Shown here: piece after piece, positions 236 to 48,661 of the stretch
Position numbering within the stretch: position 1 is the stretch's first letter
How the letters are laid out: every line of letters starts with the position of its first letter
Assembly (NCBI RefSeq): GCF_036365525.1
Contig: NC_090381.1
Span: 88,591,257-88,655,256 of the forward strand
Length of the DNA stretch: 64,000 nucleotides
From: Heterodontus francisci
Lineage: Eukaryota
Reading direction: 5' to 3'
The notes under the pieces: model-generated
The model's input: only the letters and a program-made list of their open reading frames with translations
Database searches by the model: none
What the model was told of the DNA's origin: nothing
Program-made: the position numbers and the translations under genes

Positions 236-535
236 TCAGATAGGCAAAACGGTTTCTCCAAAATGCCTTGCCCTCCCTGGACATGTATTTCGAGGTGCTG
301 GAAGTATTGGAAAGTTAGTTCCACTGCCTGTGCTGATAACGAAACCCAGTGCACCCTGCATTTCCTCGGAGGATTCAATTCTCTTGGGAGTTCCATTGTG
401 CGTATTTAGCTGCTTATTGCTATATTGTTGTTCAGCATTGGATTGTCTCTTATTTCTTCGTCCTTGTCCTTTCCTTTTACCATGTCTTTGCTTGACAGCA
501 CTTTCACCCACAATTTTAGCTGAATTGAGCCCCAC
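236..535 (-). CDS. Fetuin paralog exon 7 (basic tail)
   Basis: tcactgaag|VGLNSAK...RHGKRKGQGRRNKR...ESSEE...FPILPAPRNTCPGRARHFGETVLPI-TGA; the acceptor is the best in-frame AG but weak, so the 5' edge is less certain. Confidence 0.82.
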   Translation of the reverse strand: MGLNSAKIVGESAVKQRHGKRKGQGRRNKRQSNAEQQYSNKQLNTHNGTPKRIESSEEMQGALGFVISTGSGTNFPILPAPRNTCPGRARHFGETVLPI

Positions 536-1419: not shown

Positions 1420-1506
1420 CTTTGGTCTGTAGAGCTCACAATTCACTTCAACTTTCTCTTTTCCAGAATTGGGTTTATATACAGAGGCAGTGCAGAAGCC
1501 TTTACT
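1420..1506 (-). CDS. Fetuin paralog exon 6
   Basis: ttcctttgcag|SKGFCTASVYKPNSGKEKVEVNCELYRPK|gtaatc; 87 nt. Confidence 0.93.
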
Positions 1507-1712: not shown

Positions 1713-1823
1713 ACCGGAAGCAAATTCACCTCTATCCCTCAGACAATTGTGAAGTTTGGAAGCTTTAGTGCATGCAGTTTCTTGGATTGTAAATTCAACA
1801 AATATTTTCTTCCCAGCCACAAC
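1713..1823 (-). CDS. Fetuin paralog exon 5
   Basis: ttttcttccag|VVAGKKIFVEFTIQETACTKASKLHNCLRDRGEFASG|gtaagt; 111 nt. Confidence 0.92.
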
Positions 1824-2664
1824 CTGGAAGAAAATCATACAAAAATGTTCTTTAGCAACAAGTAACCTAATGGAATAATTGCCAGAAACGATTACATCAT
1901 ACATCAATCTTTTCAAAGACACCTGTGATAGTAAAAGAAATATATTTAATACCAGTAGAATGTTTTATCATGTGTACCCTTTTGTACTTTTCCACAAGTT
2001 GTATATTGTGATATTCATACCAACAAGCAACCATCATTATAGAAAAGTGATACATGCCACTTTCTCTTTCAGGTGATGTTATAAGCATAAGGGATAGTGA
2101 CATGACAAGATATTTTGGTCTAGGTATTTGGCTTTTGTAGAATTGGATCATATCTGCAACATGGTAAATCCTCCACCTGCCAGAACGATACACCCTTGAC
2201 CCTGCACGATTTCTGGCCAGAGGGTCATTTAAATATTATTGGTGGGCCACTCATGAGTGTCTGCCTGGACTGAGGGAGAAGCAGAGGGAGCAATTGAATA
2301 TATTGGGTCTCAGAGGCCTGCTGTACCATAGTATTGCTGCCAGTACAGTATAAACATGAAAAAATGTTTGATTTTCTTTCAAATTTGAAATTTCCTTAGG
2401 CTATGAGGACAACCAGACAGCATATCAATTATAGCTTATTGCTGTTGCTATTATTGCTCACATCTGCTTAGAAGCCCAACATTTTCACCGTCTCTGGTAT
2501 GTTTAGTGCAAAATTGGCACACGTGGACAGCAAATCTCAAAATTTGCAGAACTTCCCCCAGGATTTTACTTGTGGTTGCATTTGATCTTTCAGATTATCT
2601 GTAAAATAAAAGAGTTTGGATTTTTTTGTTGAGTTTTGCCAAAAAAAAGGAATATCAACTTTAC

Positions 2665-2831
2665 CTGAGAGGAAGCTTTTGTTATTTTCTGTACTGCAAA
2701 ATAATTTGTTCTGCTGCTATTTCTGTTATATTTTTGTAGTGCAGTCATGACAGATTGATTGACATCTGAATGGTTTAAAGGTAATCGATGGGGGCAGCTT
2801 GGGCATCTGCTCAAAACCATGTCATCTGAAT
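2665..2831 (-). CDS. Fetuin paralog exon 4
   Basis: long pyrimidine tract then ttgaag|(D)SDDMVLSRCPSCPHRLPLNHSDVNQSVMTALQKYNRNSSRTNYFAVQKITKASSQ|gtaaag; 167 nt. Confidence 0.92.
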
Positions 2832-9356: not shown

Positions 9357-9444
9357 CTGGTGATATTAAACACCGGTACTTGTGGACCTGATTGCGCCGT
9401 GTTTTGGGGTTAATTTGTAATTGTACTTTACAGTCACCAGAAAT
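9357..9444 (-). CDS. Fetuin paralog exon 3
   Basis: attccattag|ISGDCKVQLQINPKTRRNQVHKYRCLISP+G|gtagga; 88 nt. Confidence 0.92.
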
Positions 9445-11884: not shown

Positions 11885-12082
11885 CCCTCTGTCTTCCTGA
11901 GCATTTTCAATTTTGTTCAGCACATACTTGTATCCTCCTAGCTGGTCAGCGTTGATGTGTTCCACGGCCAGTTCTGCTGCATCCACTATCCGCAGCACAT
12001 TGCAGGAAAGGGCTCTGTAGGAGGCTGCAAGTGAGGGTTGGAAGAATTGAATGCTGACCACAAGCACAATCAACAGCTTCAT
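11885..12082 (-). CDS. Fetuin paralog exon 1
   Basis: agcATG; MKLLIVLVVSIQFFQPSLAASYRALSCNVLRIVDAAELAVEHINADQLGGYKYVLNKIENAQEDRG|gtgagt. Confidence 0.93.
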
Positions 12083-29899: not shown

Positions 29900-30244
29900 T
29901 CACTGATCTTCAGGATACTTGTGTTTTGTTGGGCAGGTTGTCGCATCTGCAGGTAGGTCAGGGAACTTGATAGTTTGTTTCCCAGCGCTGGCAAGCAATT
30001 CCTCAGAGGATTCTGAGGACTCGTCCGTTGATCGTTTGCGTTTAGGAGGAATACTGTCAGATTTTCCGAATGTTGGAGTAAAACTCGAAAAGTCTGGTAA
30101 TGCAGTAGAAGTAATGTGGACTTCGGCTTCTTGACCATTAGTATTAGCTTCTGGTGCCGCCACAGTGCCACCTTCCTCTCCGGGTGCCGCCACAGTGCCG
30201 CCTTCCCCTTCTGGTGCTGATGCAGTTTCAGCACCCTCTGCTAC
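29900..30244 (-). CDS. AHSG: AHSG-like exon 7 (acidic, Ala/Gly/Pro/Ser-rich tail)
   Basis: acattgcag|VAEGAETASAPEGEGG...PKRKRSTDESSESSEE...FPDLPADATTCPTKHKYPEDQ-TGA; matches ORF 29900..30256. Confidence 0.9.
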   Translation of the reverse strand, partial: VAEGAETASAPEGEGGTVAAPGEEGGTVAAPEANTNGQEAEVHITSTALPDFSSFTPTFGKSDSIPPKRKRSTDESSESSEELLASAGKQTIKFPDLPADATTCPTKHKYPEDQ

Positions 30245-31067
30245 CTGCAATGTCACAATGTTTGGGTTATATTTTATCTTTAAATTATTTCATTGCTATT
30301 TTGTGACAACCCATTCTTTTTCACATAGTTGCTGACTTAGGGATTAAGAAACTTCGCTTTTTATGTTTTTGAAAGACTGACCTGATTATTAGCATCCAGA
30401 CATTAATTTAATAGATACTTGAATATATGTGACCTATGCCATATAAATACAAGTTTGTTCTTTATTATATTGGAACAGTATCAGAAGCAATGTGTTATGG
30501 AGGATTCACTTTTGCAGAGGACTGGCTTCCACGTTGCACTATGGTGCAATCTGTTTAATAAAAATGTAGTGATACTAGTGCATGTATTGGGTAGAATATT
30601 GGCCAGCATTGCATAGATTATAGAATTTGTTCCTGTGTAATTCTTTCTTCCCTATATGCTCTGTAGTGCTGGGTAGAGAATTTGGACTATATTTCCCCCA
30701 CATCCTCTTGGCCAAACAAGCAAATATGCTTTATGCATCTCCAATTGAGAAGACAACTGGGCTGACTGGCATGGTATCTCATGCACTGCTCCAAGAAAAT
30801 GCCTGGATGATCTTGGCAACTTACTGCTTCCAGTGCTTACAATCTGAAAATCCCCATGCCATGACTATTTTAGTCAGACAGGTAATTGGTCTGGAACAAT
30901 GCTACCGTGCTTCCTACTCCAGCCAAAATGTATGGATCGTGTGTTGTCCACTCCTTGGGCCAGAAGATTAAATGCCAAATGTATCTCAAGACTGTCACAG
31001 AACTCCAGAACAGTTGAGCATTCTGTTGGAGAAGATTTGCTAAAAGCTTTAAAGAAATAGGGCAGTT

Positions 31068-31395
31068 AAGATGTTTCCCCTGGCTGGTGAGTCTAGAACC
31101 AAGGGACATAGTCTCAGAATAAAGGGCAGGCAATTTAAGACTGAGATGAGGAGGCACTTCTTCACTCAGAGGGTGGTGAATCTTTGGAATTCTCTACCCC
31201 AGATGGCTGTGGAAGCTCAATCATTAAGCATGTGCAAGACAGAAATTGATAGATGTCTGGATTACTAATGACATCAAGGGATATGGCCATAGCGTGGGAA
31301 AGTGGTTTTGCGGTAGATGATCAGCCATGATCTAATTGAATGGCAGAGCAGGCTCGATGGGCTGATTGCCCTACTCTTGCTCCTATGTCCCTATG
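31068..31395 (+). mobile_element. CR1 3' fragment
   Basis: MFPLAGESRTKGHSLRIKGRQFKTEMRRHFFTQRVVNLWNSLP plus 3'UTR. Confidence 0.88.
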
Positions 31396-32044
31396 ATTAA
31401 GATTGGAACAGGATCATGCCAACCTACAGTTGTTTTGTAAGGATGTGGATAAAATCAGTCATAGCTTTTCCTTGTATTCAATAAGGGTTTATCATCTTCT
31501 CTTCCACTCTTGGGCAATTTTTTAAAATATCTGTCCATGGGATGTGGGCATCTCTGGCAAGATCAACATTTATTGCCCAACCCTAATTGCCCTTGAGAAG
31601 GTGCCTTCTTGAAATGCTGCATTCCATGTGGTGCAGTTACTCACACAATGCTATTAGATAGAGAGTTACAGGATTTTGACCCAGCCACAATGAAAGAACA
31701 GCAATGGCTTAGTGTTTGCAGTCAATGGCAACGCAAGGACGCTCACCACCGACCTCGAAGTAAGTCTCGCTAAGAGATCAAGCGATCTCTCTGGTGAGAA
31801 TTTCACATCTATCACCATACAAGTGGCACTGCAACTGATTGCAGAGTTCTTTAGGGGGCAATTCCCAGTGTGGAATTGGAGTGATGTCATCAGAGATCGT
31901 CCAAGCATTAACGATTTTCACAGACACACAAACAGGAAAGTAAAAGCACTAAAATAAAAATCACTTTAAAAAAAAATACATAGAGCAAATTAAAAATTGG
32001 GACATACACTTGGGGTGAAGGTAGAAGCCATAATAGAAGCCCAT

Positions 32045-32682
32045 TGACCTTCATAGCGAGAGGATTCGAGTACAGGAGCAGGGATGTCTTGCTGCAATTA
32101 CATAGGGCCTTGGTGAGGCCACACCTGGAATATTGTGTGTAGTTTTGGTCTCCTTATCTGAGGAAGGATGTTCTTGCTATAGAGGGAGTGCAGCCAAGGT
32201 TTACCAGACTGATTCCTGGGATGGCGGGACTGACATATGAGGAGAGATTGAGTCAGTTAGGATTACATTCGCTGGAGTTCAGAAGAGTGAGGAGGGATCT
32301 CATAAAAACCTATAAAATTCTAACAGGTCTTGACAGGGTAGATGCAGGAAGGATGTTCCCAATGGTGGGGGAGTCCAGAACCAGGAGTCATAGTCTGAGG
32401 ATATGGGGTAAACCTTTCAGGACTGAGATGAGGAGAAATTTCTTCACCCAGAGAGTGGTGAGCCTGTGGAATTCACTACCACAGAAAGTAGTTGAGGCCA
32501 AAACATTGAATGCTTTCAAAAAGGTGTTAGATATAGCTCTTGGGTCTAAAGGGATCAAAGAGTATGGGGCGAAAGCGGGAACAGGCTACGGAGTTGGATG
32601 ATCAGCCATGATCATAATGAATGGTGCAACAGGCTCAAAGGGCCAAATGGCCTACTCCTGCTCCCATTTTCTATGTTTCTGT
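32045..32682 (+). mobile_element. CR1 3' fragment
   Basis: ORF 32188..32601 QPRFTRLIPGM..FFTQRVVSLWNSLP; 3'UTR ending ttctatgtttct. Confidence 0.92.
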
Positions 32683-33003
32683 GTAATATTCTGCAAAACT
32701 TTTTTTTAATTATTTAAAAAAAACTAGCTTAAAAATCTACTAATTAATCACTTAACAGCACTTTACAAATATAAAATTATTTTTTCAGGGCCAATTCTGT
32801 TATTCATCAAATTTTATTAATCGCATCATTGTTAAAACCCAGTTTATACCTGATTGAAACAGCAATGTGGAAGCGGGAAAGTTGAAATTCACACTGATTT
32901 CAGTGATTCCCAGCTCTGGGGGGGGTTGGGGAGGGGGTGTGTCCACAGTACAACCTTTGGTGGAGCACTGACAAAGAACAATTTCAGGATTTCCATGTTA
33001 ATC

Positions 33004-33557
33004 ATGCTCACATCTCTGTCCTGGGATTGCTGCAGTGTTCCAGTGAACATCAACGCAAGCTCGAGGAACAGCATCTCATCTACCGATTAGGCACACTACA
33101 GCCTGCCGGACTGAACATTGAGTTCAATAATTTCAGAGCATGACAGCACCCCATTTTACTTTCATTTTTAGTTATTTTTTCTTTTTTACTTTTTTACATT
33201 TTTTACAATCTTTTTTTTTTGCATTTATTTCATTTCATCTTAGTTTGTTCAGTTTGCTTACCCACTGTGTTTTTTTTTCAGGTTTGCACTTACTGCTGTT
33301 CAATATTCAGTCCATTAACACCTATTCTGTACTAATGCTTTGTCTTTCAACACACCGTTAACATATTGTTTGGCAGCATCTGTGAAAAGAGAAGCAGAGT
33401 TAACATTTCGGGTCAGTGACCCGGATTCCGAAGAAGGGTCACTGACCCGAAACGTTAACTCCGCTTCTCTTTTCACAGATGCTGCTAGACCTGCTGAGTG
33501 GTTCCAGCATTTCTTGTTTTTATTTCAGATTTCCAGCATCCACAGTATTTTGCTTTT
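33004..33557 (+). mobile_element. Penelope-like element 3' fragment with internal inversion
   Basis: HISVLGLLQC..RKLEEQHLIYRLGTLQPAGLNIEF (GIY-YIG C-terminus); exact 15-bp TSD ATTTCCATGTTAATC at 32989-33003 and 33558-33572. Confidence 0.9.
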
Positions 33558-34431
33558 ATTTCCATGTTAATCTGCCTGATATCCTGATGTTGCAATCAGT
33601 TTCAGAGGAGTAATGATGGTGAACACTGACAGTCCACTGTCAACCATCACCAACCGCCCCCAAAATCCAGCCTAATATACTTCCAGGTCAGGATGGCATG
33701 TGACTTGGAGGGAAACTTGCAGTTGGTGGTGTTTCTGTGCACCAGATGCCCTTGTCCTTCCAGGTGGTAGAGGTCACGGGTTTGGAAGGTGCTGTCGAAA
33801 GAGCCTCGGCGAGTTGCTGCAGCACATCTTGTGGGTAGGACATACTGCGGCCACTGTGTGCTGATGGTGGAGGGAGTGAGTGCTTAAGATAGAAATGAGT
33901 GGCTTGCTAGGCCATTTCAGAGGACAGTTAAGAGTCAACCACGTTGCTGTGGGTCTGGAGTCACATACAGACCAGACCAGGTAAGGACAGCAGATTTCCT
34001 TCCCAAACGGCATTGGTGAATCAGATGGGTTTTTACAACAATCTAGTAGTTTCATGGTTATCATTACTGATACTAGCTTTTTATTCCAGATTTATTTAAT
34101 TAACTGAAGTTGAATTCCCCAGTTGCCATGGTGAGATTTAAACTTGTCTACGGATCATTTAATGCTGCCCTCTGGATTACTGTGGTTAGTGATTAGTAAC
34201 ATAACCACTGTGCTACAATATCCTGGATAAAGTGGATGTGGTATAGCCATTTTAACCAGATGCAGGATTTTTTATTTCACTCAGGCTACATAATGAATTG
34301 ATTCAAATATATGAGGGTGCTCCGCATGACTGGAACCAAGAGTACTTGATATAAATCTGAAAGTTGTGCTTATAATGTTACTTTTGAAGATACCTGCTAC
34401 CCCAACAATGAAATGTAAACATCATCCAAAG

Positions 34432-34760
34432 GAGCAGAGGATCAGGAGTACGCCAGTCAGTCCCTTAATCTTGTTCTGCATTCAATGAGATCATGGGTGA
34501 TGTGCATCTTAATTCCAGTTACCCACGTCTGATCCATAGCCCTTCATGCCTCTACCTAAGATAACTGTCGACCTCAGTCTTGCAAATTTCAATGACTCAA
34601 CATCAACGCCATTGATGTATAGAAGTGCCACCTGAATGGCCTAGCTCTAGTTTTAAGACTGTGTCCCTTGTTTTGGATTCCCCCACCAGAGGAAATAACT
34701 ACATTGTATCCACCCTATCAAATTATTTATCATTTTAAACAATTCAATTATATCGCTCCT
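34432..34760 (-). mobile_element. Old CR1 3' remnant
   Basis: ggagcagagg..cattcaatgagatcatgg..ctgaatggcctagctctagttttaagact; similar remnant at 35705-35980. Confidence 0.55.
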
Positions 34761-35030
34761 CGACTTATTAAACGTAACAGAATGTTTGGCAAGTTTATGC
34801 AATCTAGCCTCATAATCTATATTTTACTCTCTCCAAGCTCAATATATTCATCCTGAGGTGTGGTGACTTGTGCTTTCTGAATAAGGTTAAGCAGGTTGTA
34901 AACATTATTGATAAAATATCTGCTGCAGATGATGTATTGTGTGTTTAAGTGTTGATCTGTAGCTATAGTCCTGTATTACTGTTTGTCTCTTTTTGTACTA
35001 TACGTTTTTCACTGAAGATGAAGGCATTAC

Positions 35031-35117
35031 CTTTGTGCTGTAGATCTCACAGTCCACAACAACTGTCTCTTCACCAGAATTGCCAGGAGTGACAGAAGCT
35101 ACACAGAATGCAAGATC
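35031..35117 (-). CDS. AHSG: AHSG-like exon 6
   Basis: ctttttgtag|DLAFCVASVTPGNSGEETVVVDCEIYSTK|gtaatg; 87 nt. Confidence 0.92.
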
Positions 35118-35704
35118 CTACAAAAAGGTAAAAGACAGGAATAAATATAATGATCAAATGTCTAATGGTTTCACATTGCAAACCCCGTGCACACCTTCTT
35201 TAATCAAGGCTGAGCAGAGGGTTAATGCCGAAATCAGAGGGTTAATTCCATGCTCTATGCTGCCAGTGGGGAGCTATTTTTGCAGGTAGCATGGATTGGA
35301 CAATCCAGCTGACAATGTATTTGTCCTGTCTCTGACCCTCGCCCCCTATAAATACTCCCCATCGGAACCATGTGATCACAACATCACTGTGCTGATTCTA
35401 AATTACAATTTTTCCAGATTTCACACTCTAAACCTCTGTGAAGCAGTTACAATGTTTTCTGAAATACTTACAGAAAACCTGAAACTTTACCTCAATGGAT
35501 CATTGCATCATCCAAATCTGAACTAATCTTTATAAAGGAATTTTTAAGTAATTCATATTCTGGATCAACAAGATTTGGATCCATTCTGAGTTAGAAACTA
35601 CTTCAGGCCCAATCCCAATATTTGTAGCTGTTGCTGATCTATCCTATCATCTAATCAAGTGTAAGTTTCTGTTAAACTTAGAGTTCAATGTCTTTGGAAG
35701 ATAT

Positions 35705-35980
35705 AGGAACATGGAAACATAGGAACAGGACTAGGCCATTCAGCCCTTCAAGCCAGTTCCACCATTGAATTGTACCATGCCTTATCTATAACTCAATTCA
35801 ATTTTTTCACCAGTGTTCCATATCCCTTGATAACTTTACCTAATAAAAGTCTATCAATCTCAGTCTTAAAATGTTCAAATGACACAGCTACTAGAGTCTT
35901 TGGGAGTGCGGAGTTCCTACACTCTGTGTGAAAAGCTGCTTCTGATTTCACTTAAATGGCCTAGCTCTAATTTTAAGATT
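35705..35980 (-). mobile_element. Old CR1 3' remnant
   Basis: catggaaacataggaacaggactaggccattcagccc tail and ctctgtgtgaaaa..ggcctagctctaattttaag. Confidence 0.6.
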
Positions 35981-36933
35981 AATAACAGGATTTTCATATC
36001 AGATTTACACAACTGGTTACAAATGTGGTACAAAACTTAGAGATTATAGCTGCCAAATCAAAATCACCTCTAACTATGTCTCCTTCACTGAAACTTATCT
36101 AAGGCAGTGCAAAGATGTGTCCGCTCCACTGTCATGAAGATTCATCACAAAGCCCATGATGTAAATAAATGCTACTGTCTGTACCTACCTACCAGCATGG
36201 ATTCGATTCCTTAGTTTGACAGATGATTCATCAGTAGTACAAGATAACAGCCACATAATGTAAGGCATATGATGGTGAGCATGCATAATGTTGGTGCTCC
36301 AATGAATGAACTCAGAATATGCGGCCAGAATATCAACTACTATCAATCAGCTGTTAGCATTCACACCAGTAGATTAAGTGTAACAACATTTAACCCAACA
36401 ACATTGGTAGGAGCTTAGCCTGCTGGCAGTGATCAGCCCATGTGTGTAAATTAAAACATATCCTTCAAGGATCTGATAGACATTTAGCAACTATCATGAG
36501 ACTGAGGTGTGGTGACAAATACTGACACGAAACTTATTGGCAACTTCACAGTATGGTTCACAAAGCTTCAGCTATGCTTCAAACACACTTCCAAAGTCCC
36601 TTGCAAACATAAACACACATACAGTTAGTACCTGTAAATCAATCTTGGGACTCAATTATTCTTTAATTAAACCATTTCAAGCCCTTAATTGGGTTACACT
36701 CACTGCTAGATTTTCATTATGCTTTACCCAAACCATCTGAACTCCTTTCTTACATTAAAGTCTTTTATTCTTTCCCAAATTCCCATTATCCAAGAAATAA
36801 AGCATCAGAACCTCTCAATTATTGTAAAATCAACATCTATTATACTATTTCTAAACCACCTAAATGTTTTGATTTGATTATAATCTGTAACTCAGTCTGC
36901 ATTATTTATCTATTCTGACTACAATGTACTCAC

Positions 36934-37029
36934 AGGAGATAGAAGGGCAATCAGAGGACACACAAGGCTGCCTTTGACACATGGTGTCTCCCGGATGACG
37001 AATTCCACCAACACTGGAGTCCCAGGCCC
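36934..37029 (-). CDS. AHSG: AHSG-like exon 5
   Basis: tatgcttcag|GPGTPVLVEFVIRETPCVKGSLVCPLIALLSP|gtgagt; VEFxIxETxC motif; 96 nt. Confidence 0.9.
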
Positions 37030-37444
37030 CTGAAGCATAATCACAATAATGTTCATAGTAAGTAATTAAATGAGTCAATCATTGCTTTTATTAGGATTAC
37101 AAATCCAAACTTTGCAGCCATTGCAGCAAAAAATGTCCTCCTTTGCCAGGATTACCTGAAAGCAAAAGAGGATCTTGAAACACTTTTGTGCACCTACCTG
37201 CAAAGTAGCAGCATGATCGATTGGTGACATTGTGAAATTCATGCTGTATTGGTGAACTCCATAAGCTAGCAGCAGGGTGAATTAGTGAAGCTGTGAAAGT
37301 GTGTTAAACTATAGCAGTCATGTCAGAAAAGTACCACTGTGATATTTCCATCTCCCACATCAGAGATTTCTCTGAATGAGATTCCCAAATCATTGTCAAT
37401 TAATGCTGAATTAAGGAGGCAGGGAAGCTTTAAGCTGTGAACTC

Positions 37445-37880
37445 ACCATGATGTTGCCTGGGCTGGAGCATTTCAGCTATGAAGAGAGACTGAAAAGGTT
37501 AGGGTTGTTTTCCTTATAGCAGAGAAGGCTGAGGGGGGACCTGATTGAGGTATACAAAATTGTGAGGGGATAGATAGGACGAAACATTTTCCCTTAATGG
37601 AGGGGTCAATAACCAGGGGGCATAGATTTAAGATAAAGGGGCAGGAGGTTTAGAGGGGATTTGAGGAAAAGAAATTTCACCCAGAGGGTAGTTGGAATCT
37701 GGAACACACTGCCTGTAGGGGTGGTAGAGGCAGGAACCCTCGTAACATTTAAAATGTATTTAGATGAGCACTTGAAATGCCATAGCATTCAAGGCTATGG
37801 GCCAAGTGCTGTGCCTGATGGCTGGCACAGACATGATGGGCTGAAGGGCCTGTTTCTGTGTTGTATAACTCTATGACTCT
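37445..37880 (+). mobile_element. CR1 3' fragment
   Basis: PGLEHFSYEERL..RKRNFTQRVVGIWNTLP; ctctatgactct tail. Confidence 0.88.
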
Positions 37881-38058
37881 TTGACAACACGATCCACATA
37901 GGTATTTTTACTTGTTAATGGTACATAACACTTTACACAATTTTATACTCTGGTCTCAAATAGAACGAGTTGAGGCAGAAACCAGTCTAACTAGTCACAA
38001 CTGTAAGCAATATAATTTTCAACTGGAACCAGGTTCATCGGTCTCAACTGAAAACAAT

Positions 38059-38796
38059 CGCCGGAATTTTACATTGGGCGGCAGGTCCGCCCATCGGCCA
38101 AAAAGTCGGGGACGAGCCCGCCTCCATCAGGCCTCGGGAGTCATGTCGTGATTTTAGGCTCCCCAGGCCCTTAATTGTCCTTGGGCAGGACTTCTACCTC
38201 TCTGAGGCAGGAAATCCCGCCGAATGGAGCTGCCAGCCAATCAGCGGACTGGCAACCCTCAGTCCCAGCAGCGCCACCGGGAGCGGTGGGACTGTAACCC
38301 AGCCACAGCAGCAAGAGAGATGACGGCCCCGGAAGACAGGTAAGTTTTTGGGACCTCGTCGGGCACAATCGGCCAGGCCCCAGCGAGGCAAGGGAGGTTG
38401 GTTTGGGGGGGTAGCTTTCCTTCAGTGGGGGGGTGGGGCGATTGGGGTCAGGGGTGGCCCTCCATGGGGCACAGCATGCCCACCCCGACCCACAAGGAGG
38501 CCGCCAGGTTTTACCTGGCAGCGTTCTGGGGGCCTGAACGTCCCACCACTGGTAAAATACCTGCGGCGGTGGGAAGAGGTCCTTAAGTGGCAGTTAATTG
38601 ACCACTTCAGGGCCCTGATTGGCCTGGGCTGGACGGGCATTTCCTGCCGCTGCTGCTGCCACCCTTTGTAAAATTGCAGTAGGGGTGGGAAGGGTTGGGA
38701 TCGGCACTCCCTGCCTCCCACTCAATTATACAGCACCATCCCCCTCCCCCACCCCCGCCACCAGCCTGTTCCTGTGAAAGGCCGAAAATACCGGCC
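38059..38796. mobile_element. GC-rich MITE inside a ~47-bp tandem repeat (about 38005-38855)
   Basis: TIRs (c)GCCGGAATTTT..AAAATACCGGCC with AAT duplicated on both sides; flanking units caatataattttcaac..gaaccaggttca..ggtctcaactg. Confidence 0.78.
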
Positions 38797-39339
38797 AATA
38801 TAATTTTCAACCAGAACCAGGTTCACTGGTCTCAACTGGAGCCAATATAATTTTTAACTGTCACAAGTGCAAATGGCCAACTGGAACCAGTACAACTCGT
38901 CCAGGTGTCCAAATTTCCATGGTCAACTGGTTCCAGTGGATTTATGGGAGGTATGTAGTAAAAGGTCACTTGCCCACCTGCCCTCTCGTGAGGAATGCTG
39001 CATTAAGCAAGAGTACGTAACAGAGAAACTAAGAACATTGAAGCCGATTGCTTTGGTGTGTGATGGATACCGTCTCCATTCTATTTAATTTCTGATCTAA
39101 TCTGTGCCAAACCATCTTTATGTAGGTTTAGCGAAATTGGAATGAAGAGGATATTTCAGTGGCAGCAGGATCTCCTCTTGGCTGGGACATATCTGAGACA
39201 TTAGCATTTAGTCCAATAGTAGGCCTGGCACTTACCTTCTCTGCAGTAAAAGTGTGAGGACCAGGAAATCTGAAGATAAGAGATAAATTACAATGAAAAG
39301 TTGTAGAAAAAGTTTAAGAAGTAAACTTTTTTGACTAAC

Positions 39340-39506
39340 CTTTGTGGAACCTCGTGTTATTTCTTGAAGTGCAAAAGTAACTGTGTGGTTGCTGATTTGA
39401 TTGTATTTATTAAGTGCAGCATTTGCAGCATGTTGAGCTTCTGTACTATTTTTAGCTATCAGATGTGGACAGTCGGGACATTTTTCAGAAACATCTTCTG
39501 CTGAAT
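39340..39506 (-). CDS. AHSG: AHSG-like exon 4 (linker + start of cystatin domain 2)
   Basis: attttgcag|(D)SAEDVSEKCPDCPHLIAKNSTEAQHAANAALNKYNQISNHTVTFALQEITRGSTK|gttagt; 167 nt. Confidence 0.93.
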
Positions 39507-40659
39507 CTGCAAAATATTACAGGATACAGTCATTAAAAAAAATCTCCAATTTCTCTCTTGCTGCTGGAGACATTAACGAATGCAACGCTATGGTTGCATA
39601 TTGTGATCATTCATGACCTCTCCCAAAAGGTCATTCTTCACACTTAAAACCCTCACCCAGGCAAATTATTTGTGGGGCAAGCAATTTACTGTCATTTGCA
39701 TCTGCTCAGAACTGGCACTTTCACTGAGTTGATGCAAATTCCACCAGAATTCCAACAGAAACCCCACTGCACACAGAAGTGTGGAAATTTACAGTATTTG
39801 TTCTATGAGCCAAGTCATTTTCCGTAATCCTAAATAAGACCAATTAACCCCTTTTCTCAACCCAACTGAGATCAGCTAATTCAACCTATAGAAGCAATTG
39901 ATCTTGGTACCCTCCTGGTCCGTGTGGCTCAGTTTCACACTGGACAGCACAATTACCTATTGAAGTATCTTGTTATAAAGCAGTATTTTCTCATGTTTCA
40001 GTAACTTAACCCTACTATTTCCCCAGTATTCTCATCAGCAATTACTGTTTAATATTCATTTTAGATTCATTCATCAACATTTTATCAAATGCCAACTTTT
40101 CTGAGCTGTTGCTTCATGACTAGCTACCTGTAAATATGTCATAAAGATATATATGCTTAGTTATTTTATTTGAACAATTTCAGATCCATCCATTCACCTT
40201 CAGAAACTAATTTTTCCCTTAACAATTTCAAAAGCAGATTGTAATTTGTTGCACTCATTGACAATTAGCAAAGCTTTACGTGCAATGTGGGCTAACTATC
40301 GGCTCTTTAAAGAAACCCTCCTGGGATGGGAGATCAGAGTTATGAATGACCTCCATGTGTGAGTCCGGATAGTGAATATGGGCCGTTCATTTGTACATGG
40401 GAGGCAGAACAGTGAAACCCCATCCTGTTCAAACAGGTGCACTTTCCAACAGAGTCTTGGGATAATAATTAAGACTTGTAACCCTGACCAGTGCAAATAG
40501 TTGTTTCTTGGGAAATGGGTATTGTTAGCAAGGCCAACATTTATTGCCAATTCTATTTGCCCTTGAGAAGGTGAGATGTCTTCTTGAACTGCTTCTGTGG
40601 TAAAGATGCTTCAACAGTGCTGTTAATATAGGAAGTTCCCATTTCTCATTTTAAGGCTC

Positions 40660-43600
40660 TATCTCTATTCTACTAGGACTGCAATTGGAAGTGGAGGACC
40701 AGCAAAAGGCACAAAAGGACTGCCTATCAGGCCAGGTAGCACACTAGGCATGCTGCCAGGTCCTCCCAGTTTGTAACCAATTGGGTCTACCGTCGCAGGC
40801 ACAATTAGTTGGGAATGACAGAAGATAAATACATAAGGTGGCTGAGGTTCAGCAAGGAGACCGTGATAGATCTTCGCCATTTCTTTCAGGAAGAGAAACA
40901 TCCATACATTCATGTGGCACTCCTAAATGCCATCAAAATCATCTTGACTCTCAATTTGTATGTATCTGACTCCTATCTGACTATGGATGGGGTTATTTGA
41001 AGTGCTAGCTAGTCTATTGTTAAGAGATATCCAGTAAATCACAAATGCATCATTCAGCATGGCCGACAATTTCATTATTTCCACCACTGATCGACAGCAA
41101 CAACATGAGAAAGTAACCCGATTGTACAGATCAGCCAGTTTTCCCAATGTTCAAGGAGTCATTGATTGAACCTATGCTGCCATTTGGCTCCCTGTGTATA
41201 ATGCTGTGTCATTTATGAACTGAAAAGAATTTGATTCTTTCAATCACCAGCCAATATGTGATCACATGCACAGAAACATGTATGTTTAATGAAAACAAAA
41301 ATGCTAGAAATACACAGCAGGTCTGGCAGCATCACTCGCCACAGATGCTGCCAGACATTAGAATTAGAATTAGAATTAGAACATTACAGCGCAGTACAGG
41401 CCCTTCGGCCCTCGATGTTGCGCCGACCATCTGACCTACACTGGCTGAGTAATTCCAGCAGTTTCTGGTTTTTTATATATTTCAGATTTTCAGTGTCCAC
41501 AGTATTTTGCATTTGAATCATCTTGTTGATACCTGTTTCCCCAATAGCTCCTATAATGTCTTCATTTTATGGAATCATCCATGACAACATTATTTGAAGG
41601 GAAAAAAGAATGGAAGCATTGTTCCACTGCAGTTATGGCCTGTGGGAGAAGCAGAGTGCAGGTACAACAAACTTCATGTTACAACCAAAATGATTATTAA
41701 ATGTACGATTGAGATGTTAAAGCAGATCTTCAGAAACTCAATTGATCAGTCAGTATCTTACATGATAACCTGCCAGAGTTTTATGAATAATTTTCCCTGA
41801 TATGTAAATACAAAAAGTGGATGACAAACCATTGTAGAGTAAAAGGATAAAATATGGCAATGTGCTGCTGAACTAACAATGCAGTGAGAAAGATTAGTGC
41901 TCCAAGCACTGATAAAGGAAAACTTCCAATGAATGCCACAGCTACACCAAAGTAACTGGACCCAATTACCTTCCCCTACATTTTCCTGTGCAGCTTCCCA
42001 AATACCATCTCTTATCATCTTTTGCTGAGCTCATGTGTTATTACAAATAAGTACATAACATAATGTTCAAACAGTATACCTGTTCAATCCACTGTGTGGT
42101 GCAGTGAATGTTGTTGGCATGATTTCCCACAGTGCTTCTCAGTGCTTGTAGTTTGTGCTTGGTGTGTAACACCTAACTTACTACTCTCCACTGTGGGAAG
42201 GAGGAATTGTACAGGTAAGCTGCAGGGTGAGATTCTGATGGCCTTATACCTCCTTGCGGTTTGCATTGTGATGATTCTGCATCTGAATCAGCTATGTTCA
42301 ATGTTGTTGCGGGTAACTGGATTGCTCACTTTCTGTCATATCCACTATCACTTGTGCATTGATGTTTGATAGACTGGATGTGATGTTGCCTGGTCCACTC
42401 ATACTCCAGGCATGTCCCTGCTGGACACTCCTTCAGCTTGTCCACTGATCTGTCTGAGAACAGAACTTTGGGCCACTGTGAGATTTGTGAATCTCTGCCT
42501 CAAGTTGCTTCTGTGCAATCTCTGAACATATTGAAGCTGGTCAAGTCATGACCCTGAAAGATTGAAGCCCAAAGCTTCTAAAGCAACTTCGAGAGATTGT
42601 GCAGCTACTGTGCCTATGGCATGAGCAACTAAGGGTTCTGCTGCATCTGCTCGCTGATAAGTTACAGTGCAGACAACTGTGCAAATCTATGCAGTAAACT
42701 CTTCCATTCTCCACCCAATTTTCATAGTGTGTTTTGCATCAACATAAATGACTTAGATTGATCCAGCTCAAATCTCTTTTATAAATAGGTTCGATGAAGT
42801 CTGAAATCCCTAGGCGCTGAAACAGGGGCAGAACTATGCTAGATCTCTGTCCAGCAGAAGCTTAGCCTTCAGCGGCTTACACCACTTGCTCCTCCTCACC
42901 AGCACTGTGACTCAACTGCATTTCCTCTCAGTCTCACTATTTAGCTGAGCTGGTGATTAGCAGAGATGGTAATGGCTCAGAGATACTGGCAGTGGCAGCA
43001 ATTTGATATTCCATCCTAAGAAAGAAGAAAACAAAATGTCAAAATGTTGTTTTAAACAACCATCTTTAAGCACTACTTTCAAATGTAATGTTCCTCCAAT
43101 TGAATCAATCTGTGATGATAAGCAGTCAGCAAAATAACATGGCATGACATAAACTTTATAATGCAAGACCTGAAATCAAGGGAAGCCTCTAGTTACATTG
43201 TCTCCCACTCCCTCAGTGCAGTCTCAGGCAATGATTTCAAGGGTGGAATCAACGGCTTAAATTCCTTGATTACTTTTTGTTCATGCCTTTTGTTGCCAAT
43301 TAAAATAGTAGTACAGAGATATTGAAAGTAGAGAGAGCAAATTGCAATGTTGTATGGCTGCACAGATTTAAGGGTATACTATATACTATAAATTGAGGAT
43401 ACATAGTCTTGTTTGAAGTCCTTTAAGAATTATTGCTATACACACGTGTTGCCATATGCACTTCCTAATTGTAATTACAACATGTGCCCGAACAAATTCA
43501 AACACAGCATTCCTTGGCTTCCCTGACTCTATGATGGCAGGAATACTTAACATCTTCAAACATTAATGGGTCAAATAGTTAACAGAGATGACTTCCTTGC

Positions 43601-43950
43601 ACATGTATTTGGGGCAGTTTTTGACATGTAGGACAGTATTGTTGCCTTACCTGATCAGATTTCTTAAGGTCAGACCCATTTTCCTGACGTCTTTCCAGGT
43701 CTTGCAGATCCTGGACACTGCACTCATTGATTGTAACACAGCTGCCCAATTCTGCTGCATCAGGTGTGTCTGAGGGAGTGCAGTGGCCATTAATCTCATA
43801 CAGAATGTTCCTCCTCTCCCTGACTGCTTCCAGAATGGCATCCAGCTCCTGGTCAGTAAACCTGGTTTTCCTCACTCTGCTGTACTCCACTCCTTAGTAA
43901 TATTGTTCAGTTATCAGATGTCCTGGCCTTGCCTACACTATTTCAGATTT
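40660..43950. mobile_element. Old PIF/Harbinger transposon in AHSG-like intron 3: transposase remnant (+, about 40700-41900), Myb/SANT gene remnant (-, from 43890)
   Basis: GMTEDKYIRWLRFSKETVIDL, FPNVQGVID; RKTRFTDQELDAILEAVRERRNILY (43579..43890) is a Myb/SANT-like DNA-binding N-terminus. Confidence 0.72.
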
Positions 43951-44285
43951 TAACTGGCTCTTAATTCCAGTTCACAGCTGATTATCAGGACTTTTTCTTC
44001 TTTCATATCATTAGAAAACTCATCCCATGGGAATAAAAGCGTGCATTTTAACGCACAGACTAAAATCAGTAAAATCACGCATTAAGCAGTTTTCTTTGTA
44101 ACCATCAAAAAACCCCAAAAAAGATTCAGTTAACAGAAGCAACAACAATTTGTAGCCTATGGCATTACAAGTGCAACTGTAACTTTTCACTGATACAACA
44201 AACTTATACTTAGCAAACAGCGACACCTCTGCTATTGCTATAGAGCTCTGAATTGTATAATAATGTCAATTCAACAAAAAAATAC

Positions 44286-44373
44286 CTGAGGATATTTCAC
44301 ACTTGTAGTCTTTCACATGACCAGGAGCTCCAGATTTGGTCTCTATGATTACCTTACAATCTCCTTCTACTTT
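44286..44373 (-). CDS. AHSG: AHSG-like exon 3
   Basis: gtcattttag|KVEGDCKVIIETKSGAPGHVKDYKCEISS+G|gtattt; 88 nt, ends in phase 1. Confidence 0.92.
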
Positions 44374-46169
44374 CTAAAATGACAATGAGACAAAAATAGT
44401 TTTAGTTACTTTAAACATGTTTAGAATACATTGTATAAGTCACTTGGTGATTTGCACTAGGATGTCCAATGTTATTGGTTATCTGTGTGATAATGGACTG
44501 CCTCATGGTGATGGGCATGTAAATCATACAGGGAACACGAAGAATAGAAATTACAATTTGAGATCTTCGCATATGATTACTTAACATGTTCATATGGCAT
44601 TTCTACATCTGGTATGTTAATGAAGGTGTTAACAGTGGGCAAAGGAATTTAATATTAGCATGTAGAATGTTTCTTTTGCAAACGTTTTGGACTACAGAAA
44701 ATTTCTGGCTGGATTTTCAGTGACCTATTTTATTGCTCAGTTTTTCAATGTTCCTGTCTGACAACGAATAGGGAAGACCATTTTGTCACTGCCGCTACAT
44801 TAGTAATAATAGATTATTGATTCTTGTGGATGACAGAGGCAACTGAGAATTGGTCAACAAAATGATTACAATGTCTTTTCCACCAACATATATTTTACTG
44901 CACAGCCAAACACTCAACCATATTCTCCATAAGTGTTCTTTACTTTGATCTTTAAAATGTCATATCAAAACTTGTTTGTTTAAAGAGCTGAGCAACAGGG
45001 AGTCCCATTCACTTGTCCACAAGGTGCAGGCCCTAGCCCAAGTTCCAGGGACAATAGTTTTGTAACTTTGGGGTCAGACCACTGGTACCTGTAAGGATGC
45101 TTCAAAAAAATTTTTGAAATCAGCTTGAGCTCCTAAAGGAGCAATATCTTGGAAGACCAAAGGTAATTAATCCCCTGTTTGCCTATTAGAGTTTTGGGTC
45201 CTTTGTTGGTCTTTAGCAGAATTCACATCAGCTCTCAGTTGGCAAGAATTCTGCTGTGACCTTGTAACAACATACAGAGTTGAAATCCTGGGGTACCAGG
45301 GAATACCTGAGACACTCCTGCTTAATCTGTGAGGAAGGCAGCAGGGAGAGGAATTACCCTCTCCTCATCCTACTGGAAAATAGGAATCAGAAATGGAGTA
45401 GAATCCCATTGGAACCAGGTTCTAGCTTCTGGTGAGTGATTTATCTGCTTTCCATTTTTCCCCAGATTGGAAGTTCAGGCCCAAACATTTACCTCTGAAG
45501 TTAAGCCATGCCAATTGCCCACCAGCAAAGTACCACTTGATTTTTTCCCGTCCCCATTTTGTAATTTATTTTTCTCCTGTTTTTACATTCTCATAGCTTG
45601 CAAGTATTGGCACCCAGTTAGATTCTGATCAGGCTGTTCAGAAAGGTCCACAATGTAAGCTAAAATGATGGAGTCATTAGTTTTTAAGGTTGTTAAGGTT
45701 TTCAATCAAATTTTGTCATCAAGAAAATGAGAACTAAATCCAACTTCATTTCCCACACTGCCTTTATTTTTTTCCCATTCCTATGTCTTTTTTTCACACT
45801 TTTGTTGCTTTCGCAATCTTGTACTGGACGTTATAAACTAGATTTTTTCAACATTTCTTTAGCCCCAGCACTATACGATTTATTTTGAATCAGATAACAC
45901 ACCAATCAGGAAACGTAGGCTGAGGTATATGAAAGAGATATGAGTCAATGCATTCCCTGAATTTTTTTTCTCCACTTTAACACAGATTTTCCCAATAGGA
46001 GTTTCCCAAGTTCAGGTCACAGTGAAATGACATACAAGTATCAGACCACATTCCCCACCATGCTTGCAACCCTATAACCAGCTCCCCACAGAATGTAACA
46101 GTCATATAGTTATCAAATTTTAAGTAAGACTGCAATACATTTATAGAAGTTTAAGGGAAGAATACTCAC

Positions 46170-46280
46170 AGTTTCCTTGAATGATCGGATTTCACAGTCA
46201 TTCAATGGTTTACGGCTCAGAACATGGCATTTCGTCTCTCGAACCTCAATGTCCAAATAATGGACATCAGTCCCACTTGC
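46170..46280 (-). CDS. AHSG: AHSG-like exon 2
   Basis: tttcctttgcag|ASGTDVHYLDIEVRETKCHVLSRKPLNDCEIRSFKET|gtgagt; ETxCHVL fetuin motif; 111 nt. Confidence 0.93.
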
Positions 46281-46698
46281 CTGCAAAGGAAATAGTTGTA
46301 AAGAACTCAATGTGGAATAAGAATATTAACATTTTCTCAAACTGCATTGCCACTTTCGTAGAATTGCTTTGCTCTGTGCAAGCATGGGTACTCAGCTGCA
46401 TGATAACAGTTTTTAAGTAGTTCAATAACATTGATAATATTATAGTCAGGTATCCATTTGACATCACATTATTTTATGAGTGGCTCACCCACTTCCCCGC
46501 ATTGTTGCAGTTTTGATTTAGCTTCTAACTTGGGTGCCACCCACCTTGACTTGTGTTATGGCATGGGACAAGCTCACGATATAAGCTCCGTGTGCTGTGA
46601 GTCTAAGAGATAGGTGAGAACCTGTCTGCCAGCTGAATCTTCAGAGGATTGCCAAAGAAACAGGTAGGAAACAGTAGCAGCTAGCCAGTGCAGACACT

Positions 46699-47170
46699 GG
46701 GCTGAATTTTGCTTGCCTTGTAGGGACACACTGAGAAGTGGAGGAGGGCCATAAAATGATAAAATGGCAATGGGAGGTGGGGAGCGGAGTGCCTGTTGCC
46801 TTTCCGACAGCAAGGAATTTTGTCAGTGGTGATGGAGGTGGAGAATAGCCTTCCAACTCAGAGGCCAATGGAGTCCCTCATGTGGCAAATTAAGGTTCAC
46901 TTAAGTGCCTCTTCTCGCCGCCCCTAGCATTTTACCAACGCCTGCTACATGGGGAGACTGCCCAGTAAAACCTGGCAGTGTCCATGTGAGCTAGGTGGGG
47001 GTAGCTCCTGATCAGGCACTCTATGGGCCATAGAGGGGACCCTCCCCAGTGGCAAGGACCAACCCCGTGGAAAAGAAAACACCCCCACCACCCACTACCC
47101 CTCCCCCCCCCCCCACCACCTACCGATTGGCCAGCAACTCTTGGAGGTGGGCTCTCATCTTGTAAAGGGA
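46699..47170. mobile_element. GC-rich MITE family copy
   Basis: Starts gggctgaattttgc; shares gaggccaat..cacttaag..ttttacc core with 38059 and 60285 copies. Confidence 0.55.
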
Positions 47171-48175: not shown

Positions 48176-48661
48176 CAGTTGTTCTCAAAGATTTTTGTCC
48201 ATGGATCACTTTGGCGGGACAAAAGACCCTGTTGATTACCTCCCGGTCCGACATCACCCACTTTCACTTGCCATCACAAAAAAAACCAGAATTAATTGGA
48301 AGAATGGAGAGAATGTGGAAACTCTAAATATTTTGGTGCCTTTTTGCTACCAAATGGAATAAATTCCTGTGCATTAATTTTTTTAATTAAATATAAGTAA
48401 ATGATTAATTCATGTCAGAGAAAAAGCATCAACATTAATATGTGTTATAAAATCATCACAATAATCTTCTGGCATGTGGGAGCCTGTCTGGTTGTGTGAC
48501 GTCACGCGAGTGGTGGGGATGATGGTTCTGGCCTGTTCTCTCATATGGCCTCGGCTGTGGCGGTGCGCATCAATGACTTGCATTTTGGACCAGCCCGTGG
48601 ACCACCTGGAGGATCCTTGCGGATCACCAGTGGTCCACAGACCACACTTTGAGAACCACTG
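48176..48661. mobile_element. hAT (Charlie-like) non-autonomous element
   Basis: TIRs CAGTTGTTCTCAAAG / CTTTGAGAACCACTG; 8-bp flanks CCCTAAGA / CCCTTTGA (6/8 match). Confidence 0.75.

What the first reader, a model, noticed from the sequence alone, without database searches (positions are those of the whole stretch)
1713..2831. Fetuin-architecture protein with a kininogen-type QVVAG inhibitory loop
Seen: splicing exon 4 to exon 5 gives KASSQ|VVAGKKIFVEFTIQETAC. Known: QxVxG (QVVAG) is the papain-family inhibitory hairpin of cystatins and kininogen domains 2/3 (recalled human D3: QVVAGKKYFIDF). Fetuin-B instead has QWVxG plus CPDCP for astacin inhibition, and fetuin-A lacks the motif. Here the linker is CPSCP, the C-terminus is fetuin-A-like (CPGRARHF), and the upstream paralog has CPDCP but TK|GPG. 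Inference: a two-domain fetuin that may keep ancestral cysteine-protease inhibition and bridge fetuins and kininogens. Caveat: the N-terminal Gly and second-hairpin PW (here KPN) are missing.
Basis: partly seen in the sequence, partly recalled or inferred. Interest (0 to 1): 0.7.

Follow-up and report, generated by a model that had tools for sequence, protein, structure and literature searches.

The report
Shark fetuin-A paralogue with cystatin hairpin
A shark blood-protein gene of the fetuin-A family carries one part of the site that cystatins use to block papain-like proteases, but it lacks the other two parts, is not a link between fetuins and kininogens, and better-preserved versions of the site occur in other fish and frog fetuins.

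Summary
In detail: a seven-exon minus-strand gene splices exon 4 to 5 in frame, giving Q|VVAG; contigs of 3 of 4 runs bridge that joint. It is the horn shark protein NCBI calls fetuin-B-like. Trees with the motif columns masked put it, beside its upstream paralogue, in the fetuin-A (AHSG) lineage; unions with kininogens (AU p 0.035) or fetuin-B (0.017) are rejected, and horn shark has its own two-domain kininogen. So it is no bridge. The papain-binding wedge looks relaxed: in 16 orthologues strict QxVxG 4, trunk Gly 3, PW 0, whereas 18 of 18 shark and ray kininogens keep CxGC and QxVxG. Horn shark has Ser at the trunk Gly and no Trp: weak or no inhibition expected (inferred, unassayed). What is invariant is the tail: RxK/RR, ESSEE, CPGRAR, suggesting a cleaved, phosphorylated two-chain plasma fetuin. 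The wider lead: CxGC plus QxVxG also occurs in gar, tarpon, pike and caecilian AHSG, a frog fetuin-B-derived clade, elephant shark and sevengill shark (14 of 127 non-kininogen rows). Those are the better candidates for cysteine-protease-inhibiting fetuins.

The parts
11885..12082 (-). Gene B exon 1: signal peptide and start of cystatin domain 1 (Cys27)
   Evidence: identical to P0001
11026..11136 (-). Gene B exon 2 (LETRCH fetuin signature); tandem acceptor CAG/AAG gives forms with or without Lys67
9357..9444 (-). Gene B exon 3, end of domain 1
   Evidence: its 3' end is the loose end at 2833 in X1 and X2
2665..2831 (-). Gene B exon 4: fetuin-A-type acidic linker (PDS), CPSCP trunk, helix of domain 2, ends in Gln187 (CAG|GT)
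2791..2805 (-). CPSCP trunk; Ser143 stands where cystatins have the conserved Gly and fetuin-B the zinc-binding Asp
1824..2664 (-). Phase-0 intron 4 (841 bases) that splits Q|VVAG
1713..1823 (-). Gene B exon 5, begins with VVAG (1823-1812) of hairpin I
1420..1506 (-). Gene B exon 6, hairpin II with KPN (1476-1468) in place of PW
236..535 (-). Gene B exon 7, coding part: basic stretch, RNKR (457-446), ESSEE (376-362), CPGRARHF (283-260), stop; no bradykinin
29900..52317 (-). Upstream paralogue A (AHSG-like): exons 52317-52117, 46280-46170, 44373-44286, 39506-39340 (CPDCP), 37029-36934 (GPG), 35117-35031, about 30244-29900; 41% identical to gene B over the two domains
   Evidence: exon 7 acceptor inferred from splice signal and tblastn, no RNA laid

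Best explanation
Gene B is a cartilaginous-fish paralogue of the fetuin-A (AHSG) lineage, in tandem with a second AHSG-like gene. It encodes a secreted glycoprotein with two cystatin domains and a mostly disordered tail clamped to domain 1 by a Cys27-Cys338 bond (inferred from the family). The tail is probably cut by a proprotein convertase after RNKR and phosphorylated at ESSEE, giving a two-chain plasma fetuin that works as a carrier or scaffold (inferred). Its QVVAG is hairpin I of a cystatin wedge that was more complete at the base of this gene's clade (CPGCP plus Q[IV]VAG in elephant shark and sevengill shark) and is now under relaxed constraint. In horn shark the trunk Gly is Ser and hairpin II has Asn for Trp, so inhibition of papain-family proteases is expected to be weak or absent, and without Asp and Trp it should not inhibit astacins. 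Shown: gene structure, splicing, fold class, motif distribution, tree placement. Inferred: processing, phosphorylation, activity.
For: Splicing. Careful tree of 70 rows, motif columns masked: shark A+B+C with bony-vertebrate AHSG 92/85, wider fetuin-A group 99/95 starred, kininogens 100/99 apart; domain 1 alone 97/95; AU tests reject union with kininogens (p 0.035) and with fetuin-B (p 0.017). Linker [PS]DS in 16 of 16 gene-B, 14 of 39 AHSG-clade, 0 of 22 kininogen and 0 of 65 other rows; CPG[RK]..aromatic end in 15 of 16 gene-B, 17 of 23 AHSG-clade, 0 of 6 kininogen and 0 of 36 other rows that have CPG near the end. Wedge: strict QxVxG 4, CxGC 3, both 2, PW 0 of 16 orthologues; positions 143 and 188 show 5 states each, matched by only 8% of 229 core columns; control: 18 of 18 chondrichthyan kininogens keep CxGC and QxVxG, 17 of 18 a Trp in hairpin II. 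Ser143 aligns to residue 9 of chicken cystatin and 11 of cystatin E/M, Cys144 to residue 12 of cystatin C. RxK/RR and SxEE in 16 of 16 tails. Mouse fetuin-B D156A loses 2-4 orders of inhibition (PMC6400186).
Against: The node joining sharks to bony AHSG (92/85) and the shark A+B+C node (91/87) are unstarred. In the domain-2-only tree shark A+B branch before AHSG plus fetuin-B (91/77, unstarred). Q187, G191, K192, P236 and G239 are invariant, A190 and I237 hold in 15 of 16 and position 189 is V or L in 15 of 16, so the surface is not drifting freely. Domain 1 is nearly neutral (15 acidic, 14 basic; AHSG-clade mean net -6.2), which weakens a fetuin-A-like mineral role. Stefins inhibit without the PW Trp (PMC5072729). 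The size of the Gly-to-Ser penalty is recalled, not found in the library. No activity was measured.
Confidence: 0.6

Rival explanations
1. The horn shark protein is a working inhibitor of papain-family cysteine proteases through trunk, QVVAG and hairpin II, perhaps with a narrow target such as a parasite or endogenous cathepsin.
For: Exact QVVAG at hairpin I with the canonical loop length; domain 2 superposes on cystatin C and E/M (Z 14-15, rmsd 1.9-3.0 over 103-110 residues). Qx[VL]xG in 14 of 16 orthologues. Among 127 non-kininogen rows CxGC accompanies QxVxG in 14 of 18, against 7 of the other 109, as expected if the pair is functional in fetuins.
Against: Horn shark is one of the 4 of 18 QxVxG rows without the Gly and the only one of 16 with Asn rather than Ile after Pro236. 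Kininogens of the same animal group keep the wedge far better. The co-occurrence is not significant on independent pairs (median p 0.06-0.125, too few pairs). Mouse fetuin-A and -B do not inhibit papain or cathepsins B, K, S (PMC6346019), though they lack the motif.
Confidence: 0.2
2. The domain-2 edge has been repurposed in elasmobranchs for another partner (another protease class or a receptor), as happened in other fetuin-A offshoots; Qx[LV]AGKK and KPIxG are its new signature.
For: Q187, G191, K192, P236, G239 invariant in 16 of 16 while the trunk residue varies. Fetuin-A-lineage proteins have switched targets before: carp fetuin inhibits meprins and nephrosin (PMC6400186; PMC6346019), viper FETUA-3 inhibits venom metalloproteinases (bioRxiv 10.64898/2026.09.24.752146).
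Against: 76 of 229 core columns are invariant anyway. Gln and Gly have structural roles in fetuin-B, and the Gln codon also forms the exonic part of the splice donor, where paralogue A has AAG (inference). No partner is indicated.
Confidence: 0.12
3. The gene is an evolutionary intermediate or chimera between fetuins and kininogens.
For: QVVAGKK resembles kininogen rows. In the domain-2-only tree shark A+B branch first among most non-kininogen rows, without a star.
Against: Kininogens stand apart at 100/99 and 100/95 on domain 2 alone, where gene B groups with paralogue A (96/82), which has no QxVxG. AU p 0.035. Horn shark kininogen-1 exists on a contig of the same length as gene B's and is only 29% identical. 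No kinin and no CPGxPW end. Two domains is the normal kininogen layout in teleosts and coelacanth (PMC3835742), so the layout bridges nothing.
Confidence: 0.04
4. The gene is the shark fetuin-B orthologue, as the database name says, and inhibits astacin/meprin metalloproteases.
For: NCBI name; best solved relative is fetuin-B (E 5e-34; Z 24.0, rmsd 3.2 over 230 residues); ASSQ matches human fetuin-B.
Against: No fetuin-A or kininogen chain appeared among the PDB hits, so best-hit naming is uninformative. AU p 0.017. Elephant shark has a separate fetuin-B, XP_007897454. Trunk Asp in 2 of 16 orthologues, QW in 0 of 16.
Confidence: 0.04

Closest known systems
Fetuin-A / AHSG (MEROPS I25C type-3 cystatin)
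   Same: Tree placement; PDS linker; CPGR..[HY]F end; 12-Cys two-domain layout; likely two-chain processing and Fam20C phosphorylation, as reviewed for human fetuin-A (PMC9340150).
   Different: Domain 1 is not acidic; hairpin I is QVVAG, not the Pro-rich loop of amniote AHSG; tail has a basic stretch (10 of 18 residues K, R or H) and a strict RxK/RR site seen in 0 of 38 AHSG-clade tails.
Fetuin-B (FETUB), astacin/meprin inhibitor
   Same: Fold and domain arrangement; hairpin I of equal length; ASSQ before the loop.
   Different: CPSCP for CPDCP, QVVAG for QWVxGP; union rejected.
Kininogen (KNG1) inhibitory domains, including two-domain shark kininogens
   Same: QVVAG at hairpin I; two-domain layout shared with fish kininogens.
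   Different: No trunk Gly, no hairpin-II Trp, no kinin, CPGRAR rather than CPGxPW end; separate gene and clade.
Unstudied CxGC plus QxVxG fetuins: gar ahsg1 XP_069053889, tarpon XP_036410382, pike ahsg2 XP_010900295, caecilian AHSG XP_030072235, frog fetuin-B-like (Xenopus tropicalis XP_002937886 and four others)
   Same: Fetuin architecture with a cystatin-type hairpin I.
   Different: They keep the trunk Gly; the 5 frog rows also have a Trp in hairpin II and nest among fetuin-B rows (100/99).

Membership tests
Type-3 cystatin, fetuin architecture | Signal peptide, two tandem cystatin domains, CxxC linker, C-terminal region with CPG | tested here: met
   Pfam PF00031 two stretches, E 9.6e-26; model pLDDT 81.9, Z 24.0 to fetuin-B; 12 Cys. 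Signal peptide judged from the sequence and orthologues, no predictor run.
Fetuin-A (AHSG) lineage | Groups with AHSG in phylogeny | tested here: met
   92/85 on both domains, 99/95 for the wider group; 97/95 on domain 1; unresolved on domain 2 alone.
Fetuin-A (AHSG) lineage | PDS linker and CPG[RK]..aromatic C-terminus | tested here: met
   patterns were defined from these alignments
Fetuin-A (AHSG) lineage | Acidic domain 1 that binds calcium phosphate (function of mammalian fetuin-A) | tested here: not met
   Net -1 against an AHSG-clade mean of -6.2; whole-domain charge only, binding not testable. This lowers the functional likeness, not the lineage.
Fetuin-A (AHSG) lineage | Two-chain processing and Ser phosphorylation | not testable with these tools
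   Only motifs seen: RxK/RR and SxEE in 16 of 16; convertase and Fam20C consensus recalled.
Fetuin-B | CPDCP trunk with zinc-binding Asp | tested here: not met
   CPSCP; defining role from PMC6400186
Fetuin-B | QWVxGP hairpin I | tested here: not met
   QVVAGK; QW in 0 of 16 orthologues
Fetuin-B | Groups with FETUB | tested here: not met
   AU p 0.017; rows chosen after seeing the quick tree
Kininogen | Groups with KNG1 | tested here: not met
Kininogen | Kinin segment after the last cystatin domain | tested here: not met
   None in exon 7. Weak test in sharks: their kininogens show only a GWGP-like segment in 5 of 18 rows by my pattern.
Inhibitory cystatin (papain-family wedge) | QxVxG in hairpin I | tested here: met
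Inhibitory cystatin (papain-family wedge) | Conserved N-terminal trunk Gly | tested here: not met
   Ser143 at that position by range ends of structural alignments and phmmer (143 to residue 11 of 8v57_C); that these cystatin residues are the Gly is recalled
Inhibitory cystatin (papain-family wedge) | PW in hairpin II | tested here: not met
   KPN; PW in 0 of 16. Not essential in stefins.
Inhibitory cystatin (papain-family wedge) | Measured inhibition of papain or cathepsins | not testable with these tools
   needs an assay

The most novel reading that the evidence does not exclude
Fetuins of fishes and amphibians include true papain-family inhibitors. The domain-2 edge has flipped several times between a metalloprotease state (CPDCP plus QW) and a cysteine-protease state (CxGC plus QVVxG) by few substitutions, and gene B is the cartilaginous-fish case: active in elephant shark and sevengill shark, fading or retuned in horn shark. 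This would overturn the view that fetuins lost cystatin activity.
Probability: 0.35. Interest if true: 0.65.

Novelty: new variant of a known kind. Interest (0 to 1): 0.4.

Why it matters
The literature seen holds that fetuins lost cysteine-protease inhibition (PMC2784779) on the strength of mammalian proteins (PMC6346019). This gene shows that the motif set is not confined to kininogens and points to a short, testable panel of shark, ray-finned fish and amphibian fetuins with different parts of the wedge intact, a natural series for asking how one scaffold switches protease class. It also corrects a database name: this 'fetuin-B-like' gene belongs with fetuin-A. For the horn shark protein itself the expected result is modest.

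Tried and rejected
Exon 5 alone against the PDB gave spurious polyubiquitin hits. The first structure model, from 13 sequences, was poor (pLDDT 57.4) and was replaced. No fetuin-A or kininogen chain appeared among PDB hits; this shows nothing about fold differences. My starting view that QxVxG is a continuously retained ancestral trait was not supported by equal-weight parsimony, which prefers absence at the AHSG-plus-shark node by 2-3 steps and at the base of all fetuins by 1 step; losses are probably cheaper than gains, so I leave it open. Independent-pair tests of CxGC with QxVxG did not reach significance. The mixed-paralogue search returned only kininogens and the elephant-shark fetuin-B, no elasmobranch fetuin-B and no paralogue-A rows; being word-based, it is no evidence of loss. 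No complex was predicted: no papain-family sequence was on hand, and a pass would follow from likeness to solved cystatin complexes. Rfam found nothing in the window. Earlier scan findings: none. Ten library searches listed no paper on this gene or on QxVxG-bearing fish or frog fetuins; most subscription papers, including the 2009 type-3 cystatin review by Lee et al., are outside the library, and the supplementary alignments of PMC6400186 and PMC2784779 were not opened and may show such motifs.

Full report
1. Observation. The feature lies on the minus strand. A seven-exon gene (gene B) has exons at 12082-11885, 11136-11026, 9444-9357, 2831-2665, 1823-1713, 1506-1420 and 535-236, all introns GT-AG, phases 0,0,1,0,0,0, 353 codons, 12 cysteines. 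Exon 4 ends in CAG and exon 5 begins GTT, so the joint reads Q|VVAG in frame. Contigs of 3 of the 4 runs laid skip exactly the 841 bases of intron 4 (X1 depth 2192, X2 160, X3 5; three studies; X5 does not reach it); joints 5-6 and 6-7 are bridged too, and loose ends at 2833 carry the end of exon 3. Only X3 is on record as RNA; X1 and X2 are guessed RNA, but their contigs are spliced. Four of 7 listed runs were laid. Without Lys67, which a tandem acceptor makes optional, the model equals P0001, Heterodontus francisci 'fetuin-B-like isoform X2'.

2. Anatomy. Pfam finds two cystatin stretches (E 9.6e-26). A model from 112 sequences has mean pLDDT 81.9; residues 259-313 are mostly disordered and 321-340 ordered again. 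It superposes on fetuin-B (Z 24.0, rmsd 3.2, 230 residues), and domain 2 on cystatins C and E/M at Z 14-15. In P0001 numbering the trunk is C141-P145, hairpin I Q187-G191, hairpin II K235-N237. By the range ends of the structural alignments Ser143 pairs with residue 9 of chicken cystatin and 11 of cystatin E/M, and Cys144 with residue 12 of cystatin C; that these are the conserved trunk Gly is recalled. The tail holds a basic stretch, RNKR, ESSEE and CPGRARHF, and no kinin. A paralogue (A) lies upstream at 52317-29900, 41% identical over the two domains.

3. Relatives. Orthologues came from 16 species of sharks, rays and a chimaera. From 189 sequences with domains I kept 149 rows with a full first and last domain, dropping isoforms, near-duplicates, fragments and very long multi-domain proteins; two fused models gave two rows each.

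4. Family placement. With linker and hairpin columns masked, the quick tree of 149 rows and the careful tree of 70 hand-picked rows agree: gene B is one clade (100/99); it joins paralogue A and a ray paralogue C (91/87), these join bony-vertebrate AHSG (92/85), and a wider fetuin-A group is starred (99/95). Kininogens, including two-domain shark kininogens, stand apart (100/99), and elephant-shark fetuin-B XP_007897454 falls with fetuin-B rows. AU tests reject gene B with kininogens (p 0.035) and with fetuin-B (p 0.017); the row sets were chosen after seeing the quick tree and the p values are moderate. Domain 1 alone gives sharks plus AHSG 97/95. Domain 2 alone keeps gene B with paralogue A (96/82) outside kininogens (100/95) but lets A+B branch before AHSG plus fetuin-B at an unstarred 91/77: this is the one result that leaves gene B's domain 2 an early position. 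Linker and C-terminal signatures side with fetuin-A ([PS]DS in 16 of 16 gene-B, 14 of 39 AHSG-clade, 0 of 22 kininogen, 0 of 65 other rows). Horn shark has its own kininogen-1 on a contig of the same length (122,426,060), 29% identical to gene B and not in this window. Teleost and coelacanth kininogens are two-domain too (PMC3835742, passages). The bridge reading therefore fails.

5. Is the wedge kept? In 16 orthologues: strict Q[^W]VxG 4, relaxed Qx[VLI]xG 14, CxGC 3, both strict motif and Gly 2 (elephant shark, sevengill shark, the two earliest branches), PW 0. Positions 143 and 188 have five states each, a level reached by 8% of 229 core columns; Q187, G191, K192, P236 and G239 are invariant, among 76 invariant core columns; horn shark alone has Asn237 where 15 have Ile. 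The control is sharp: 18 of 18 chondrichthyan kininogen rows keep CxGC and QxVxG, and 17 of 18 a Trp in hairpin II. The Gln codon also forms the exonic part of the splice donor, where paralogue A has AAG, so its constancy need not reflect inhibition (inference). In contrast the disordered tail keeps R280, K/R282, R283, ESSEE, GALGF-like strand and CPGRAR in 16 of 16.

6. How it most likely works. A secreted plasma fetuin of the fetuin-A lineage, cut after RNKR, its C-terminal chain held by Cys27-Cys338 and phosphorylated at ESSEE. Human fetuin-A is two-chain and Fam20C-phosphorylated (PMC9340150, passages); convertase and kinase consensus are recalled; none of this is measured here. Astacin inhibition is unlikely: the trunk Asp binds the zinc and D156A costs 2-4 orders of magnitude (PMC6400186, passages and sections 3.4 and 3.6). 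Strong mineral binding through domain 1 is doubtful (15 acidic, 14 basic residues; AHSG-clade mean net -6.2; paralogue A 20 and 17). Papain-family inhibition needs trunk, hairpin I and hairpin II together (PMC5072729, passages); horn shark keeps one of three. Large affinity losses for Gly-to-Ser trunk mutants of cystatin C and stefin A are recalled; one search found no paper. I put about 0.2 on meaningful inhibition by this protein.

7. The wider pattern. The premise that fetuin-A lacks the motif is true for the amniote rows but not generally. CxGC plus QxVxG occurs in 7 of 41 AHSG-clade rows (named: gar ahsg1, tarpon, pike ahsg2, caecilian AHSG) and in 5 of 5 frog 'fetuin-B-like' rows, which also carry a Trp in hairpin II and nest with CPDCP/QWVVG rows (100/99). 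Over 127 non-kininogen rows, 14 of 18 QxVxG rows have CxGC against 7 of the other 109, and none of 36 QW rows does; on independent pairs the traits go the same way 5.3 times and the other way 0.1 times of 11, median p 0.06, too few pairs to decide. Equal-weight parsimony prefers repeated gains to continuous retention by 1-3 steps and places CxGC at the base of gene B by 1 step. Either history implies that some fetuins may be cysteine-protease inhibitors.

8. Comparison with what is known. Mouse fetuin-A and -B do not inhibit papain, cathepsins B, K, S or legumain (PMC6346019, passages). A phylogenomic survey lists fetuin-A and kininogen in Chondrichthyes and says fetuins lost the ancestral activity (PMC2784779, passages). 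Kininogen domains 2 and 3 inhibit calpain and papain (PMC8706920, passages). Fetuin-A offshoots have gained metalloprotease inhibition in carp and vipers (bioRxiv 10.64898/2026.09.24.752146, passages). Ten searches listed nothing on this gene or on the CxGC/QxVxG fetuins; the library lacks most subscription papers and I opened no supplements, so this is weak evidence of novelty.

9. Verdict. Real, expressed, correctly read; a variant of a known family, misnamed in the database; not a fetuin-kininogen bridge; a poor candidate itself for strong cystatin activity but a pointer to better ones. Interest 0.4; the novel reading has probability 0.35 and would deserve 0.65.

Noticed in passing
P0035, P0032, P0049, P0051, P0178 (frogs): A frog clade of two-domain 'fetuin-B-like' proteins has CxGC, QVVAG and a hairpin-II Trp in 5 of 5 rows and nests among CPDCP/QWVVG fetuin-B rows: the best candidates for a fetuin that inhibits papain-family proteases.
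   Followed up: partly
P0086, P0117, P0135, P0070 and three unnamed rows: AHSG-clade proteins of gar, tarpon, pike and a caecilian carry CxGC plus QxVxG, without PW.
   Followed up: partly
P0161, P0191, P0198-P0213: Shark and ray kininogens are two-domain, keep the full wedge, and show no RPPG kinin; a GWGP-like segment was matched in 5 of 18 rows.
   Followed up: no
window 457-362 (-), gene B exon 7: RxK/RR followed 25 residues later by ESSEE is invariant in 16 species inside a disordered tail; paralogues A and C have similar basic and SSEE motifs.
   Followed up: partly
window 39506-39340 and 37029-36934 (-): Paralogue A's CPDCP is not conserved (CLDCP in catshark, CPNCP in elephant shark) and its hairpin I lacks the Gln (KGPG, KGVG), so astacin inhibition is doubtful there too.
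   Followed up: partly
P0021 (rays): A third chondrichthyan fetuin-A-side paralogue (CPGCF, shortened hairpin I) is not present in this window.
   Followed up: no
P0126, P0074 and relatives: Rows with the carp-fetuin-type QWMFSGQ loop fall in the AHSG clade, in line with the statement that the meprin-inhibiting carp fetuin is closer to fetuin-A.
   Followed up: no
P0015, P0024 (axolotl), unnamed P0020, P0027: Kininogen-like proteins with three to six cystatin domains, most with CxGC and QVV[AS]G, and no RPPG match.
   Followed up: no
P0169: A 771-residue catshark gene model labelled kininogen-type is paralogue A fused to gene B, probably an annotation artefact that confirms the A-then-B order.
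   Followed up: yes
window 11136-11133 (-): Tandem acceptor at exon 2 gives isoforms with or without one lysine.
   Followed up: yes
window 928-1418: One low-depth contig in X1 (depth 4.8) joins exon 6 to a site near 928, a possible minor alternative acceptor upstream of exon 7.
   Followed up: no
window 5600-6930, 14960-16925, 19722-20645, 49378-50418: Broken LINE-type retrotransposon copies (endonuclease and reverse-transcriptase Pfam hits) fill the introns and the intergenic stretch; an assembly gap of 180 N lies at 10531-10710 in intron 2.
   Followed up: no
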